From the NCBI RefSeq assembly GCF_024223415.1, contig NZ_CP100500.1: DNA of 64,000 bases. One strand, written 5' to 3'. The number at the start of each line of letters is the position of its first letter. Within the stretch, counting starts at the first letter, position 1. Position numbers: made by a program. This document shows positions 33,001-36,000 of this stretch, piece by piece. Source of the stretch: Escherichia coli. Lineage in GTDB: Bacteria > Pseudomonadota > Gammaproteobacteria > Enterobacterales > Enterobacteriaceae.

Positions 33001-36000
33001 GCAGTTCGAAGTGGATAAGCAGGTCATCGTCTCCGAAACGAGATGCCCGGCAGCAGGTGAGCAATGCACCTACCTGACACTGGCAGACGGCACGCAAATA
33101 ACCGCCGTCACCGACACCATTCGCGAGCTTGTGATTATCAGAGGGGTTAAACGATGACCAGCAAATACACCACCAACGCACGCAAGCCAGGCAAGGAGGC
33201 ACGTCATCACATTGCCGTTCTGCGCAATCTCATCATGTGCGAAATCGACGACTTTGTGGCGGGACTGGGCCAGCCGGGCGAGCCAGCAACACCGGGCGAA
33301 ATACACAAAGAACTACGCCGCCGCATAGAAAGCGCGGTGGATTACGTCATGAACCCGAACGACTGACCAGAACGCGAGCGCGCGCCGGATGACGCACGCA
33401 TAACGCTTAGCGGGAAGCGCCAACCGTAAGGCTGGCAATGATTTTTTCGGAGAGTGAGAGAGATTCGCGATGATTAAGACCAAGAGCAGCACAAGCTTTA
33501 TTGCGCGCCGGGTTGTCCATGCATTCAAGCACCGGAGAGTCCTGCTTCTCAATTTCCACCAGTCGCGCCAGCAACACCTCCGTGCTGAGACCGTCGCTTT
33601 CAGTAATCAGGACGTTATAGCGATGAGCCTGTTCTTTTGCAGCCTGAGCGCGTCGCCCAAATTTGCAGGCGATATTGCAGCCACTAAGCACAGCCACGAT
33701 ACCACCCAGCAACCAACTGAAATTGCTGCCTGCAAACACAGTAGCCCCAGACGTAAGGATGACAGCATTAATCACCGTATCCATACGGCGGTTAAACACC
33801 TCCGAAATATGTTCAATCCAGTAACTGTTCCAGAGACGAAACATGACCTCGTGTCGCCGTTCGGCATGATTTTCAGTTGGTTGTCTGTTCATTGCGGTTT
33901 AACCCTCCTCATCATCTCGCCCCTGCCCTTTTTCAGGCGCGGGAGCCGGTTGCCGTGGCACATGAAATTTATCGCTATCAGACATTTATTTTTTCCCGTG
34001 TGTTGTTGAACAAAGTGCCCGCACAGTTTTGACGGAACGGCGGGCGCTTCAAGCGTAACACACCCTTCTTTTCCGGTTGAAGGCGAAAAAAACCGGACAG
34101 CTACCCGACACAAACCAGACCAGCGGAGAACTGCCATGTACGCACTTAAACCTATGGGGATACCAGGCAAAGCCCCGGCGCATGTGAAAGCCTGGACACA
34201 GCAGGAAGATGATTTGCTGATCACCCTGTACCCGCAGCACACAGCACGAGATATCGCCGGACGTCTGGGGCGCAGCTACGAAGGAGTTTGCGGCCGCATT
34301 TCTCGTCTGCGTGAACAGGGCAGGATTGGCATCAAGCAGCAAAGACTAAGCGATGAGATGATCGCCACGCTCATCAGGAACCGCCACACCAGGTCCCTCA
34401 AGGAACTGGCACACATGGCGAAAGTTTCGACACGCACGGTAACCAACCGATTGAGGGCGCTGGGCTACAGCCTGATCAAATGCGGGGATCTGCATAAAAA
34501 CACCGTCTACAGCGACCGCATCGTTGAGATTATCAGACAGTTACACGACGAGGAGGGCCTGACGTTCAGGGAAATCGCACAGCGCCTTAGCCACGAACTA
34601 CAGCCGAACCCTACCCCGACACTGGCTCAACGTCTCTACTGGCGGCGCACAGCATCCGACGCCGTATTCCGTGAACTGTTACCAGATTGAGCAATCACCA
34701 TGTACACACAAAAAAACCGCTTGCAACAACAAACCGGAACAGGGTACGCTTCCCATGCACCTCATAAAACGGGTGTCGGGATTCTCAACCTGCTGACAAA
34801 CGAAGCGCACAACCGCGCCAGCGGTTTTTTTGTGCGTACTGTATTGCCACGTCTTTTTCGCATCAGAATTATGGTGGGGCGTACGGGGCCGACTTCGGTC
34901 GGGCCGGTTTCTTCGTTTGCCGGTGTTGAGAACCCCGTACGTCTCGCCACCCCGAGATTCTCAACTCTGGTTGGTGAGTATCCAAAAACTCACAAACGAA
35001 GAGGCCAAACACCATGGCAAACCGCAAACAGCGCCGCGCTATCGCTGCGCAGCGTCACATCCAGACCGAAATCAACCGCAGACTCTTCCGCGCCCACAAC
35101 ATCGCGCGAATCATGCACGCCAACATGCTGCATGAACGCAGTAACGCGTTATCAAACCTCTATTCCGCTTCCGTTTTCAGCTATCTGGCGGACGACCTGC
35201 GCGAGCTGCAAGACCTCATTAACCAGCACTGATAAACAACCCGAAGCCATCCTGCGCCCGTTCGCGGGAGGCTTCCGCACATCTGTAGTCGGGAGGATTG
35301 CGCCATGATTCTGGCTGACGATTTTCTGGAGTACCTGAACAACACCGAGCGCGACCTGTACGCGCGCGTTCTCACCCGTTACGAGAAATACAAACTTTCG
35401 CTGCCAGAACATCAACTCCGCGAAGGCGATATCGACATTGAAGGGCGCTACATCGTCAGGCACCTCATAGCGGGCTACGGCATCTGGCGTGTCACCGGAC
35501 GTGAGCATTCATTGCTGACCATCTGCCAGAGTCCGTCCGGCGTGATAACGGAGATCGTCGCTGATAGTCTGCGACTCACCCATCACAGCGCCACCCCGGA
35601 AGAAACGCTGGCAGAAACCCAGCGTCTGTGTCGCGTCATTGCCAACGCCGCCCTCCGCGCAGACAGGAGGTAAGCGATGGAGTTCGTCAGAGACTGGCAA
35701 AAACCGCGCCCCGCTATCGGGCGCGAAGGCTTACCCGTACCTGAAACCGCACTGGATACCATCCTGAAGTGTTACCGCGCGGACGAAGAGCGCGCCCTGA
35801 ACGCTGAAGAGCAGGGTCATCCGCTTGCGGGCACAACCATCGGTAACGCGATCGACAAGTGGGAAGGCGCACAGGAGCGCCAGGAAGAGGCCATCACGCT
35901 CACACAGGAAGCGAAGAGACGCCCACCCACCCTCATTGAGGAAACCCTCAAAGAGCTGGACACCCTGCCAAAGTGGTTGAGGCTGCCACTGATTAAGCAC

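What the first reader, a model, noticed from the sequence alone, without database searches (positions are those of the whole stretch)
34691..35013. Gene-free roughly 320-bp segment with hairpins and direct repeats inside the early operon
Between the 184-aa HTH-repeat gene and the next small gene there is no credible ORF (the track's 202-aa ORF here is low-complexity). The segment contains a terminator-like hairpin with a T-run (ACCGCGCCAGCGGTTTTTTT), a second strong hairpin (GGCCGACTTCGGTCGGGCC) and two copies of GATTCTCAAC about 180 bp apart. It could be an attenuator, a small RNA, or a protein-binding region upstream of the replication genes.
Basis: seen in the sequence. Interest (0 to 1): 0.4.

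Follow-up and report, generated by a model that had tools for sequence, protein, structure and literature searches.

The report
P4-type antisense RNA immunity module
The "gene-free" gap holds two known phage regulatory RNA genes (an IsrK/seqA-type leader RNA and a C4/CI-type antisense RNA) plus their matching target sites, which most likely keep the prophage's derepression and replication genes silent; it is a clear but unannotated member of a well-known system.

Summary
The gap contains full-length matches to two Rfam families. One is isrK (34757-34831, 59.8 bits, curated cut-off 50). The other is C4 antisense RNA (34867-34954, 79.2 bits, cut-off 45). The T-run hairpin is the isrK terminator. 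The "strong hairpin" is hairpin 1 of C4. The two GATTCTCAAC copies are the a1 and a2 targets of the C4 element GTTGAGAA. A second target pair, CAAACGAAG, matches the C4 loop, and its downstream copy covers the Shine-Dalgarno sequence of the 72-aa gene. That gene is a homologue of the satellite phage P4 epsilon (derepression) protein.

Across 37 distinct relatives the scaffold is nearly invariant, while the three a sites and three b sites change together (5 a types, 10 b types, 12 combinations).

P4 and N15 have the same layout. The host element is a P88-like, P2-family E. coli prophage, and matches occur in about 20% of complete E. coli genomes.

The most likely function is RNA-based immunity: C4 blocks translation of the epsilon-like gene and, by polarity, expression of replication gene A. 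An extra helix specific to this clade, joining the region upstream of the promoter to the isrK terminator, remains unexplained.

This is a new member of a known kind, of modest interest.

The parts
34702..34724 (+). Upstream arm of a 23-nt inverted repeat (GTACACACAAAAAAACCGCTTGC). It contains an A7 tract (34710-34716) placed like a proximal UP element and overlaps the -35 hexamer. It is complementary to the 3' half of the isrK terminator plus its T-run.
   Evidence: I1, 91% complementary. It is conserved in P88-like, Serratia and Salmonella relatives and absent from P4, N15, NAR688, mEp460 and sal3. In 10 diverse sequences the helix is 84% paired with 2 covarying pairs. Folding a transcript that starts upstream gives -53 kcal/mol, z = -5.1, with this helix replacing the terminator hairpin.
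34721..34750 (+). Putative promoter of the module, the equivalent of P4 PLE or PisrK: -35 TTGCAA (34721-34726), 18-nt spacer, -10 TACGCT (34745-34750). The -10 ends 6 nt before hairpin 1 of isrK.
   Evidence: The hexamers and their spacing are conserved across clades while the spacer sequence is completely divergent. A -10 of the form TAnnnT sits at the same position 6 nt before hairpin 1 in P4 (TATAGT), N15 (TAGAGT), mEp460 (TACACT) and P88 (TACATT). The generic promoter scan did not report it. Promoter activity is inferred.
34757..34831 (+). isrK / seqA-type leader RNA. Hairpin 1 is 34757-34776. Hairpin 2 is 34777-34792, with target a1 TTCTCAAC (34782-34789) in its loop. Single-stranded target b1 is CAAACGAAG (34797-34805). 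The intrinsic terminator has its stem at 34811-34826 and T7 at 34825-34831.
   Evidence: Rfam RF01394, 59.8 bits against a cut-off of 50, full length 1-77. Terminator scan. a1 and b1 covary with a' and b'.
34872..34949 (+). C4 / CI-type antisense RNA. A 17-bp closing stem pairs 34872-34888 with 34933-34949. Hairpin 1 is 34889-34902 with a UUCG loop. Hairpin 2 is 34903-34924 and carries recognition element b' in its loop (34908-34919, UUUCUUCGUUUG). The single-stranded recognition element a' is GUUGAGAA (34925-34932).
   Evidence: Rfam RF01695, 79.2 bits against a cut-off of 45, full length (hit 34867-34954). The minimum-energy fold equals the Rfam consensus, -48 kcal/mol, z = -5.2. The stems are 100% paired in 37 distinct sequences, with compensatory pairs.
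34958..34965 (+). Target a2 (TTCTCAAC), complementary to a'.
   Evidence: Three of its 8 pairs show changes on both sides across relatives; one more pair is out of register in the alignment. All five a types are fully complementary when matched directly.
34974..34993 (+). Small hairpin (GUGAGU / ACUCAC) separating a2 from b2.
   Evidence: It is 84% paired in relatives with one-sided changes only (helix 7). P4, N15 and mEp460 have an equivalent hairpin between their a2 and b2 sites (read from the sequences).
34993..35004 (+). Target b2 (CAAACGAAGAGG), complementary to the b' loop. It covers the Shine-Dalgarno sequence GAGG (35001-35004), 9 nt before the ATG at 35014.
   Evidence: Seven of 12 pairs covary. 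The predicted duplex with b' is -20.2 kcal/mol, against -8.3 for the non-cognate P88 loop.
35014..35232 (+). The controlled gene: a 72-aa epsilon-like 'derepression protein'. It is followed by a 122-aa ORF (35305-35673) and the replication endonuclease gene A (35677-38166).
   Evidence: Pfam PF25738 Derepression, E = 1.9e-8, 34.4 bits against a cut-off of 27. 29% identity to P4 epsilon, E = 6e-10. Gene A matches Pfam Phage_GPA, E = 2.4e-100. The strongest C>G skew of the neighbourhood (-0.30) lies over this ORF.

Best explanation
The gap is an RNA-based immunity and antirepressor-control module of the P4 CI / P1-P7 c4 / N15 CA kind. It sits in the early region of a P88-like, P2-family E. coli prophage.

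**Proposed mechanism**
1. A promoter at 34721-34750 drives a leader that carries targets a1 and b1 (the isrK/seqA-type RNA).
2. Most transcripts stop at the isrK terminator and give a short RNA.
3. Read-through transcripts carry the C4-type RNA (34872-34949), which is cut out as a stable RNA of about 78 nt.
4. The hairpin loop b' and the single-stranded a' of C4 pair with a2 and b2 just upstream of the epsilon-like gene.
5. This pairing buries the ribosome-binding site. The untranslated, C-rich message is then terminated prematurely, so the epsilon-like protein, the 122-aa protein and replication protein A are not made.
6. The upstream a1/b1 copies pair with the same C4 elements and act as a competing decoy that sets the threshold.
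7. The a and b sequences are the specificity determinants, so phages with different a/b types escape each other's RNA.

**Shown here:** the two RNA genes, their folds, the complementarities, the overlap with the ribosome-binding site, the coordinated three-way variation, the conserved promoter hexamers, and the homology of the controlled gene to P4 epsilon.

**Inferred from the characterised homologues:** processing of C4, action in trans, Rho-dependent polarity, and the immunity phenotype.
For: - **RNA families.** Both Rfam hits are full length and above the curated cut-offs. C4 folds exactly as the family consensus, z = -5.2.
- **Upstream targets.** In 37 distinct sequences found through the protein, not the RNA, a1:a' plus b1:b' are 96.5% paired. 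Eleven of 17 pairs change on both sides. The covariation score is 0.644 against 0.120 for shuffles (0 of 500 reach it) and at most 0.16 when the partners are slid.
- **Downstream targets.** a2:a' plus b2:b' are 90.9% paired, covariation 0.528 against 0.123.
- **Specificity types.** There are 5 a types and 10 b types in 12 combinations, all cognate. Variable columns are enriched in the a/b sites (odds ratio 4.4, p = 4e-6).
- **Ribosome-binding site.** b2 covers the Shine-Dalgarno sequence. The duplex energy is -20.2 kcal/mol.
- **Homologous systems.** P4 and N15 give the same isrK + C4 Rfam pair. Their promoter, seqA, terminator-like hairpin, CI, seqC and ATG follow the same order. PMC4825925 states that IsrK is a structural homologue of P4 seqA, and that CI RNA causes premature termination by pairing with seqA and seqC. 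A review gives the c4 mechanism in P1 and P7 (PMC12197685).
- **Controlled gene.** It is related to P4 epsilon.
- **Conservation.** The gap and its architecture recur in Serratia and Salmonella relatives, always before an epsilon-like gene with gene A downstream wherever it was called.
Against: - There are no expression, processing or phenotype data for this phage family, so every step after base pairing is by analogy.
- The -10 hexamer in this window (TACGCT) is weak, and the generic promoter scan did not report the proposed promoter.
- Nothing shows a Rho-dependent terminator. Only a C>G skew of -0.30 over the epsilon-like ORF is compatible with one.
- In Gifsy-1 the homologous module was read the other way round: IsrK in trans activates downstream translation. 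The net sign of regulation in vivo could therefore depend on the IsrK to C4 ratio.
- The target of the epsilon-like protein is unknown.
- The known model does not explain the clade-specific helix 34702-34724 / 34817-34839.
Confidence: 0.8

Rival explanations
1. Activator logic, as described for Gifsy-1. The short isrK-type RNA is the main trans-acting product. By pairing with the C4 segment of the long transcript it opens the ribosome-binding site and switches on the epsilon-like antirepressor, which induces the prophage. In this reading C4 matters mainly as a cis-inhibitory structure, not as a diffusible immunity factor.
For: In Salmonella, IsrK in trans raised translation of the downstream anrP gene about 140-fold and induced Gifsy-1 (PMC4825925). 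The minimum-energy fold of the whole read-through transcript here pairs a1/b1 with a'/b' in cis. This corresponds to their inactive 'structure A'.
Against: The same paper detects a processed RNA of about 80 nt (STnc1160) equivalent to CI. In P4, P1 and N15 the C4-type RNA is the genetically defined trans-acting immunity factor (established knowledge; PMC4825925 discussion, PMC12197685). The b2:b' duplex (-20.2 kcal/mol) is much stronger than b1:b' (-11.4), which favours repression of the ribosome-binding site over the decoy. The two readings are compatible and may be two sides of one switch.
Confidence: 0.3
2. A purely cis-acting transcription attenuator. The T-run hairpin simply terminates part of the early-operon transcription ahead of the replication genes, and the remaining hairpins are alternative structures. 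No diffusible RNA is involved.
For: An intrinsic-terminator-like site lies on the + strand inside an operon. An upstream segment can form an alternative helix with the 3' half of the terminator.
Against: This does not explain the C4 structure scoring 79 bits against a curated model. It does not explain why two separate target pairs covary with the recognition elements in three places, nor why b2 sits on the ribosome-binding site. Homologues act in trans.
Confidence: 0.07
3. The interval encodes a protein: the 202-aa ORF, an 'Ash family' or 'transcriptional repressor' protein as annotated in some records.
For: The ORF matches Pfam Phage_ASH at E = 0.0019, and several PHROG 'transcriptional regulator/repressor' families at E = 1e-10 to 1e-17. 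The frame stays free of stop codons across the gap in 38 of 40 relatives. PGAP and depositors sometimes annotate it this way.
Against: The Pfam score of 19.1 is below the cut-off of 26. There is no third-position bias (31/35/38, p = 0.51), unlike the neighbouring real gene (p = 0.001). Variation is concentrated in RNA pairing sites and is compensated at distant sites. The ORF runs through the whole epsilon-like gene in another frame. The matching 'protein' annotations are the legacy cI CDS of P4 and gene 32 of N15, and they lie exactly on the Rfam C4 hits. P4 immunity is known to be carried by an RNA (PMC4825925). PGAP calls it an incomplete pseudogene.
Confidence: 0.03
4. A decayed, non-functional remnant of a P4- or N15-like module picked up by recombination.
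For: The region is mosaic, with flanks that differ between relatives. The -10 hexamer in this copy is weak.
Against: Every element is intact and full length. Pairing is perfectly maintained in 12 specificity combinations, which requires continuing selection. The module is present in functional phages P88 and phiSM and matches occur in about 20% of complete E. coli genomes.
Confidence: 0.04

Closest known systems
Satellite phage P4 immunity region (PLE - seqA - CI RNA - seqC) followed by epsilon
   Same: P4 gives the same pair of Rfam hits, isrK 60.8 bits and C4 74.9 bits. The order is the same: promoter, leader with a1/b1 (seqA), terminator-like hairpin with a T-run, C4/CI RNA with the b' loop and single-stranded a', then a2-hairpin-b2 (seqC) with b2 on the Shine-Dalgarno sequence of the first ORF. 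An epsilon homologue lies downstream (29% identity, E = 6e-10) and a replication gene lies further down. P4-like satellites show the same combinatorial variation of a' and b' (17 combinations in 55 loci).
   Different: - The host element here is a complete P2-family phage with its own C-type regulator, capsid and tail genes, not a satellite.
- The replication gene is P2-type gene A, not the alpha primase.
- The epsilon-like gene is the first ORF, 64 nt after C4. P4 has 266 nt with the kil/eta ORFs in between.
- The isrK-to-C4 spacer is 35 nt, against about 108 nt in P4.
- The module is embedded downstream of other early genes and carries an extra inverted repeat that P4 lacks.
- No a'/b' type is shared with the sampled P4-like satellites.
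- The 122-aa ORF has no similarity to P4 orf151 or orf106.
P1/P7 immI operon (c4 antisense RNA - icd - ant)
   Same: These phages gave the RNA family RF01695 its name. The antisense RNA lies in the same transcript as its targets and pairs with sites around the ribosome-binding site of a small first ORF. This controls an antirepressor. Sequence differences in the recognition elements give P1/P7 heteroimmunity (PMC12197685; the a1/b1/a2/b2 nomenclature is from my own knowledge of Citron and Schuster 1990).
   Different: The controlled genes here are epsilon-like plus replication genes, not icd/ant.
Phage N15 anti-immunity locus (CA RNA upstream of gp31 and antirepressor gp30)
   Same: N15 gives isrK 62.4 bits plus C4 78.8 bits with the same spacing and the same AAUUAUGG leader before C4. 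Its a' (GUUGAGAA) is identical to the window's, and blastn shows 74.7% DNA identity over 178 nt (H113).
   Different: The b type differs. The downstream genes are gp31 and an Ant-type antirepressor. The module sits at the start of its operon, and the upstream arm of the inverted repeat is absent.
Salmonella Gifsy-1 IsrK - orf45/STnc1160 - AnrP
   Same: This locus defines RF01394. IsrK has its own promoter and a leaky terminator, is complementary to the downstream processed RNA of about 80 nt, and controls translation of an antirepressor (PMC4825925).
   Different: There the experiments were read as activation by IsrK in trans, and the segment equivalent to C4 was treated as a small ORF (orf45). 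The antirepressor belongs to another family. Gifsy-1 sequence was not examined here.

Membership tests
C4 antisense RNA (Rfam RF01695; P1/P7 c4, P4 CI, N15 CA) | Covariance-model score above the curated gathering cut-off over the full model | tested here: met
   79.2 bits against 45, model positions 1-87 of 87, E = 4.7e-15. It is also found in the whole-window gathering-threshold scan.
C4 antisense RNA (Rfam RF01695; P1/P7 c4, P4 CI, N15 CA) | A long closing stem enclosing two hairpins, supported by folding energy and compensatory changes | tested here: met
   The minimum-energy fold equals the consensus, -48 kcal/mol, z = -5.2. The closing stem and both hairpins are 100% paired in 37 sequences. 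Two covarying pairs lie in the closing stem and two in hairpin 1.
C4 antisense RNA (Rfam RF01695; P1/P7 c4, P4 CI, N15 CA) | Two recognition elements (b' in a loop, a' single-stranded) complementary to one target pair upstream and one downstream in the same transcription unit | tested here: met
   Complementarities. Covariation with a1/b1 and with a2/b2. All 12 type combinations are cognate.
C4 antisense RNA (Rfam RF01695; P1/P7 c4, P4 CI, N15 CA) | The downstream target overlaps the ribosome-binding site of the first ORF of the controlled operon | tested here: met
   b2 at 34993-35004 includes GAGG at 35001-35004, and the ATG is at 35014. P4 and N15 have the same arrangement.
C4 antisense RNA (Rfam RF01695; P1/P7 c4, P4 CI, N15 CA) | The mature RNA is processed from a longer precursor (RNase P at the 5' end) | not testable with these tools
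   Only the sequence context is available: a conserved AAUUAU leader before the stem and an ACCC-like tail after it. No RNA data.
C4 antisense RNA (Rfam RF01695; P1/P7 c4, P4 CI, N15 CA) | Type-specific repression in trans, giving superinfection immunity | not testable with these tools
   Requires genetics. The diversity and reassortment of a/b types is compatible with it.
isrK / P4 seqA-type leader RNA (Rfam RF01394) | Covariance-model score above the gathering cut-off; two hairpins followed by a Rho-independent terminator | tested here: met
   59.8 bits against 50, model positions 1-77 of 77. Terminator scan. On its own the fold is not unusually stable (z = -0.45), so the support comes from the model and from conservation, not from energy.
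isrK / P4 seqA-type leader RNA (Rfam RF01394) | Own promoter immediately upstream | tested here: inconclusive
   The -35 and -10 hexamers are conserved at fixed spacing around a divergent spacer, and correspond in position to P4 PLE and the N15 promoter. The hexamers in this copy are weak (TTGCAA / TACGCT), and no transcription start data exist.
isrK / P4 seqA-type leader RNA (Rfam RF01394) | Hfq binding | not testable with these tools
   No data.
P4/P1-type control by premature (Rho-dependent) termination | A Rho-dependent terminator within or after the first ORF, active when that ORF is not translated | tested here: inconclusive
   The only observation is a C>G skew of about -0.30 over 35000-35250, the strongest in the neighbourhood. 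No terminator mapping.
P4 epsilon / 'Derepression' protein family (Pfam PF25738) for the controlled gene | Profile score above the cut-off and direct similarity to P4 epsilon | tested here: met
   34.4 bits against 27, E = 1.9e-8. BLASTP against P4 epsilon gives 29% identity over 66 aa, E = 6e-10. Binding to a C repressor was not tested.
Ash protein family (Pfam PF10554), considered for the 202-aa ORF | Score above the gathering cut-off and a protein-coding substitution pattern | tested here: not met
   19.1 bits against 26. No codon periodicity.

The most novel reading that the evidence does not exclude
P88-like P2-family phages, matches to which occur in about one in five complete E. coli genomes, may run a second, RNA-based immunity layer. 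It is homologous to that of their parasite P4 and sits directly in front of an epsilon-type derepressor and replication gene A.

Because the module is embedded inside an operon here, it may have gained a new part. This is a conserved helix of about 20 bp between the region upstream of the module's promoter and the 3' half of the isrK terminator. Transcripts arriving from the early promoter would form the helix. They would then either bypass the terminator or be cut by RNase III. Transcripts started at the module's own promoter lack the upstream arm and would terminate. The fate of a transcript would then depend on which promoter made it.

The many reassorted a/b types would form an RNA barcode that decides which co-resident P2-like phages can silence each other.
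Probability: 0.3. Interest if true: 0.5.

Novelty: new member of a known kind. Interest (0 to 1): 0.3.

Why it matters
- **Annotation.** The RNA genes are missing from the RefSeq annotation of identical prophages. Elsewhere they are mislabelled as 'ash family protein' pseudogenes, hypothetical proteins or 'transcriptional repressor' CDSs. The Pfam and PHROG families that the spurious ORF matches include translations of the P4 and N15 RNA genes.
- **Biology.** A common family of P2-like E. coli prophages probably has a two-layer immunity: a protein repressor plus an antisense RNA guarding an antirepressor-like gene and the replication gene. This is the logic known from P1, and the parts are shared with the satellite P4. 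That bears on how helper phages and satellites exchange regulatory modules. It also bears on superinfection exclusion among co-resident prophages.
- **Engineering.** The set of naturally orthogonal a/b recognition pairs (at least 12 combinations here and 17 in P4-like elements) is a ready-made library of orthogonal antisense regulators.

Tried and rejected
1. **Internal promoter for C4.** The scan found TTGCCA-17-AATTAT at 34844-34872. I rejected it because Serratia and Salmonella relatives do not keep the distance between the -35-like hexamer and the AUUAUGG leader (3-14 nt shorter), and the hexamer itself degenerates. A start there would also truncate the conserved closing stem.
2. **SOS control.** There is no CTGT-N8-ACAG LexA box anywhere in the window.
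3. **Additional C4 targets elsewhere in the window.** None exist. All b matches and three of four a matches lie in the module.
4. **Cross-talk with P4-like satellites through shared specificity.** The 55 P4-like loci with a recognisable C4 core carry 17 a'/b' combinations, none equal to the 13 found in P88-like loci. The exact window-type loops occur in 9 IMG/VR contigs. Eight have an epsilon-like gene followed by gene A, and the ninth is a short contig with the epsilon-like gene only.
5. **Exclusion test.** I asked whether co-resident modules in one genome differ in type. Only two genomes had two loci. One pair differed. The other pair was identical but sat at contig ends and may be one prophage. 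Uninformative.
6. **Wider homology of the cassette to P4.** The 122-aa ORF has no similarity to P4 orf151 or orf106.
7. **NCBIfam.** No family matched any of the four proteins tested.
8. **tRNA or tmRNA.** None in the window.
9. **Primary papers.** The P4 and P1 papers (PMC176756, PMC523184) are not held in the library. The established mechanisms are cited through PMC4825925 and PMC12197685, and otherwise from my own knowledge.
10. **Rfam c4-a1b1 (RF03163).** It did not match the window at E <= 1. It does give sub-threshold hits in P4 and N15. isrK is the model that fits the enterobacterial leader.
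Full report
**1. What is in the sequence**

- The T-run hairpin lies at 34812-34831.
- The GGCCGACTTCGGTCGGGCC hairpin lies at 34887-34905.
- GATTCTCAAC occurs at 34780-34789 and 34956-34965.

- A second direct repeat, CAAACGAAG, at 34797 and 34993.
- Reverse complements of both repeats lie between the copies: GTTGAGAA at 34925-34932 and CTTCGTTTG at 34911-34919.
- A 23-nt inverted repeat, 34702-34724 with 34817-34839.

In the whole 64-kb window the b motif and its complement occur only here: 3 matches against 0.56 expected.

**2. Identification**

A scan against Rfam gives two full-length hits above the curated cut-offs, and nothing else in the window.
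- isrK (RF01394) at 34757-34831, 59.8 bits against 50.
- C4 antisense RNA (RF01695) at 34867-34954, 79.2 bits against 45.

The 78-nt C4 core folds exactly as the family consensus at -48 kcal/mol (z = -5.2). The opposite strand folds much less well.

In the consensus structure, CTTCGTTTG lies in the loop of hairpin 2 (element b'). GTTGAGAA is the single-stranded joiner before the closing stem (element a'). The upstream a copy sits in the loop of isrK hairpin 2, and the upstream b copy is single-stranded before the terminator. The downstream copies flank a small hairpin. The downstream b copy extends to CAAACGAAGAGG, which covers the GAGG Shine-Dalgarno sequence 9 nt before the ATG at 35014.

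This is the a1/b1 - c4(b',a') - a2/b2 arrangement known from the P1/P7 immI operon. That nomenclature is from my own knowledge; the c4 mechanism is summarised in PMC12197685.

**3. Surroundings**

The element is a P2-family prophage.
- The window has an integrase (29759-30802, minus strand) and a 99-aa regulator of PHROG 147 in the position of the P2 C repressor (30842-31141, minus strand).
- Rightward early genes follow, then the module, then the 72-aa gene, a 122-aa ORF and an 829-aa replication endonuclease (Pfam Phage_GPA, E = 2.4e-100).
- Copies of the 1.6-kb query region 99.9% identical lie in E. coli chromosomes. In one of them the prophage carries portal, terminase, P2-type capsid, lysis, baseplate, tail and ogr genes.
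- The nearest named phages are P88 (genus Xuanwuvirus) and Citrobacter phiSM. Both are functional temperate phages.
- 1,097 of 5,426 complete E. coli genomes have a match, most of them covering only the RNA module plus the 72-aa gene.
- RefSeq annotates no RNA in the gap. Other records call it a hypothetical protein, a 'transcriptional regulator' or an incomplete 'ash family protein'.

**4. The controlled gene**

The 72-aa protein matches Pfam 'Derepression' (PF25738, 34.4 bits against 27). It aligns with P4 epsilon at 29% identity over 66 residues (E = 6e-10). By established knowledge, P4 epsilon derepresses the P2 helper by binding its C repressor. Whether this protein acts on its own phage's regulator is inference.

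**5. Comparative test of the pairing model**

I collected relatives through the protein rather than the RNA: 80 IMG/VR loci. I then aligned the roughly 320 nt upstream of the ATG, giving 40 sequences of which 37 are distinct.

The scaffold is almost invariant. The a and b elements differ, and they differ together at all three places. There are 5 a types and 10 b types in 12 combinations, and every one is cognate.

Pair counts on the alignment:

| Pairing set | Cells paired | Pairs changed on both sides | Covariation | Shuffled (0/500 reach it) |
|---|---|---|---|---|
| a1:a' + b1:b' | 96.5% | 11 of 17 | 0.644 | 0.120 |
| a2:a' + b2:b' | 90.9% | 11 of 20 | 0.528 | 0.123 |

For the first set, sliding the partners by 1-3 columns gives at most 0.16. 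The b1:b' helix is 100% paired, with 7 of its 9 pairs covarying.

The intramolecular stems are 94.9% paired. Compensatory pairs occur in the C4 closing stem and in hairpin 1. Variable columns are concentrated in the a/b elements: 37 of 54 against 67 of 203 elsewhere (odds ratio 4.4, p = 4e-6).

Predicted duplex energies:
- b2:b' -20.2 kcal/mol
- b1:b' -11.4 kcal/mol
- a2:a' -10.3 kcal/mol
- a1:a' -11.4 kcal/mol
- window targets with the non-cognate P88 loops: -8.3 and -6.2 kcal/mol

More distant relatives from Serratia, Salmonella and a metagenome keep the same gap and the same architecture. All lie in front of an epsilon-like gene, with gene A downstream wherever it was called.

**6. It is not a protein gene**

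The 202-aa ORF gives a weak Pfam Phage_ASH match, 19.1 bits against a cut-off of 26. It also matches PHROG 'transcriptional regulator/repressor' families. The frame stays open in 38 of 40 relatives.

Several observations argue against coding.
- Variable columns show no codon periodicity: 31/35/38 (p = 0.51). The epsilon-like gene gives 24/16/37 (p = 0.001).
- The ORF overlaps the epsilon-like gene out of frame.
- The 'protein' records concerned are the legacy cI CDS of P4 and gene 32 of N15, and these lie exactly on the Rfam C4 hits.
- P4 immunity is known to be carried by an RNA (PMC4825925).

**7. Closest systems**

P4 and N15 each give the same isrK + C4 pair. Read side by side, P4, N15, Klebsiella NAR688, mEp460, Salmonella 118970_sal3, P88 and the window share the same order:
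1. a promoter whose -10 (TAnnnT) ends 6 nt before hairpin 1;
2. a1 and b1;
3. a hairpin followed by a T-run;
4. C4;
5. a2, a hairpin, then b2 on a Shine-Dalgarno sequence;
6. the ATG.

Among the P88-like, Serratia and Salmonella relatives, the -35 and -10 hexamers and their spacing are conserved while the spacer sequence is unrelated. That is the usual signature of a real promoter.

PMC4825925 already notes that IsrK is a structural homologue of P4 seqA. It also notes that a processed RNA of about 80 nt downstream (STnc1160, inside their 'orf45') parallels CI.

P4-like satellites, collected through epsilon, show the same modular variation: 17 a'/b' combinations. None is shared with the P88-like set.

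**8. Mechanism proposed**

Shown here are the RNA genes, the folds, the complementarity, the overlap with the ribosome-binding site, the three-way covariation, the conserved promoter hexamers and the homology to epsilon.

Inferred from P4, P1, N15 and Gifsy-1 are the following steps.
- Transcripts from the module's promoter mostly end at the isrK terminator.
- Read-through transcripts are processed to release C4.
- C4 pairs with a2/b2 and blocks initiation on the epsilon-like gene.
- The untranslated message is then terminated, so the epsilon-like protein, the 122-aa protein and gene A are not expressed in a lysogen or from a superinfecting phage of the same type. The ORF has the strongest C>G skew nearby, -0.30.
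- The a1/b1 leader competes for C4 and sets the threshold. In Gifsy-1 an excess of IsrK activates the downstream antirepressor.

The minimum-energy fold of the full read-through RNA indeed pairs a1/b1 with a'/b' in cis.

**9. An extra, unexplained part**

The 23-nt segment 34702-34724 lies upstream of the promoter's -35 hexamer and overlaps its first four bases. It contains an A7 tract placed like a proximal UP element. It matches the reverse complement of the terminator's 3' arm, T-run and following bases at 21 of 23 positions.

The repeat is kept in all P88-like sequences and in the Serratia and Salmonella relatives, with two compensatory pairs between clades. Across 10 sequences it is 84% paired, with a covariation score of 0.10 against 0.06 for shuffles. 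It is absent from P4, N15, NAR688, mEp460 and sal3, where the best match is 11-14 of 23.

Only transcripts arriving from upstream would contain the arm. Such an RNA folds at -53 kcal/mol (z = -5.1) with the long helix replacing the terminator hairpin.

Three readings are possible.
- Terminator bypass for early-operon transcripts. This is kinetically unusual, because the arm pairs with the 3' arm of the terminator and not the 5' arm.
- An RNase III site that excises the leader.
- A partly incidental consequence of an UP-element A tract.

I cannot decide between them.

**10. Verdict**

The element is a clear member of a known family, so novelty is low. Points of some interest are listed below.
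- Its place in P2-family phages, in front of an epsilon homologue and gene A.
- Its shared ancestry with the immunity region of the satellite P4.
- The rich set of covarying specificity types.
- The widespread mis-annotation.
- The clade-specific helix.

Noticed in passing
window 34700-35308 (+); L083 8168-8584 (-); L084 2579-2869; L086 7028-7288: Translating the RNA genes gives a 202-aa ORF that matches Pfam Phage_ASH and PHROG 'transcriptional regulator/repressor' families (995, 6928, 821, 3960, 29966). The P4 'cI gene product' CDS and N15 'gene 32 transcriptional repressor' lie on the Rfam C4 hits. PGAP calls an incomplete 'ash family protein' pseudogene on the same spot. These protein families probably consist, at least in part, of translated C4/CI RNA genes.
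   Followed up: partly
L036 (IMGVR_UViG_2582580934_000004), about 120-160 nt upstream of the ATG at 397: One relative has a 17-nt insertion that duplicates the b' hairpin: GCCGG-ATTCTTTGCTCT-CCGGT-GTTCTTGTGTAG-CCGGT. It therefore carries two b' loops of different types. Only the second matches its own b1/b2. This is either a C4 with dual specificity, a recombination intermediate or an assembly artefact.
   Followed up: no
L146 (mEp460) 2144-3295; L147 (118970_sal3) 2149-3307: In these lambdoid phages the isrK + C4 pair (locus positions about 2500-2690) lies inside annotated 'antirepressor' or 'transcriptional regulator' CDSs. The sequence has a b2 site on a GAGG followed by ATGGCTAC right after C4. 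The annotated N-terminal parts are therefore probably spurious, and the real antirepressor probably starts after the RNA module.
   Followed up: partly
window 33407-33892 (-): A 161-aa gene lies on the opposite strand, wedged between the rightward early genes and the 184-aa HTH gene. It matches PHROG 6315 (function unknown, E = 2e-49) and has no Pfam hit. It interrupts the early operon, so the 184-aa gene and the module may not be reached by transcripts from the early promoter in this particular prophage. P88 lacks it.
   Followed up: no
L155 (GCA_946062945.1) 1201-1455 and 1554-2159: This relative has an extra 84-aa epsilon-like gene directly after the cox/DUF4754 genes. The usual module follows and is called as a 201-aa 'Phage_ASH (weak)' ORF, and gene A lies downstream. 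That would mean two epsilon-type genes, with only the second guarded by the RNA.
   Followed up: no
L152 (metagenome scaffold ERZ28603510): The module with an epsilon-like gene and a 640-aa gene A homologue sits among lambdoid genes (Ead/Ea22, DUF1627, DUF968, Q antiterminator). The cassette therefore moves between phage families. Consistent with this, contigs with RNA loops identical to the window's have gene A only about 50% identical.
   Followed up: partly
window about 29700-33400 compared with L001 1-3300: The window and the E. coli genomes that are 99.9% identical across 34100-35700 differ upstream. ORF coordinates transferred from L001 do not translate in the window, and the integrase and regulator are at other positions. 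The prophage is mosaic, with a recombination boundary somewhere left of about 33.4 kb.
   Followed up: no
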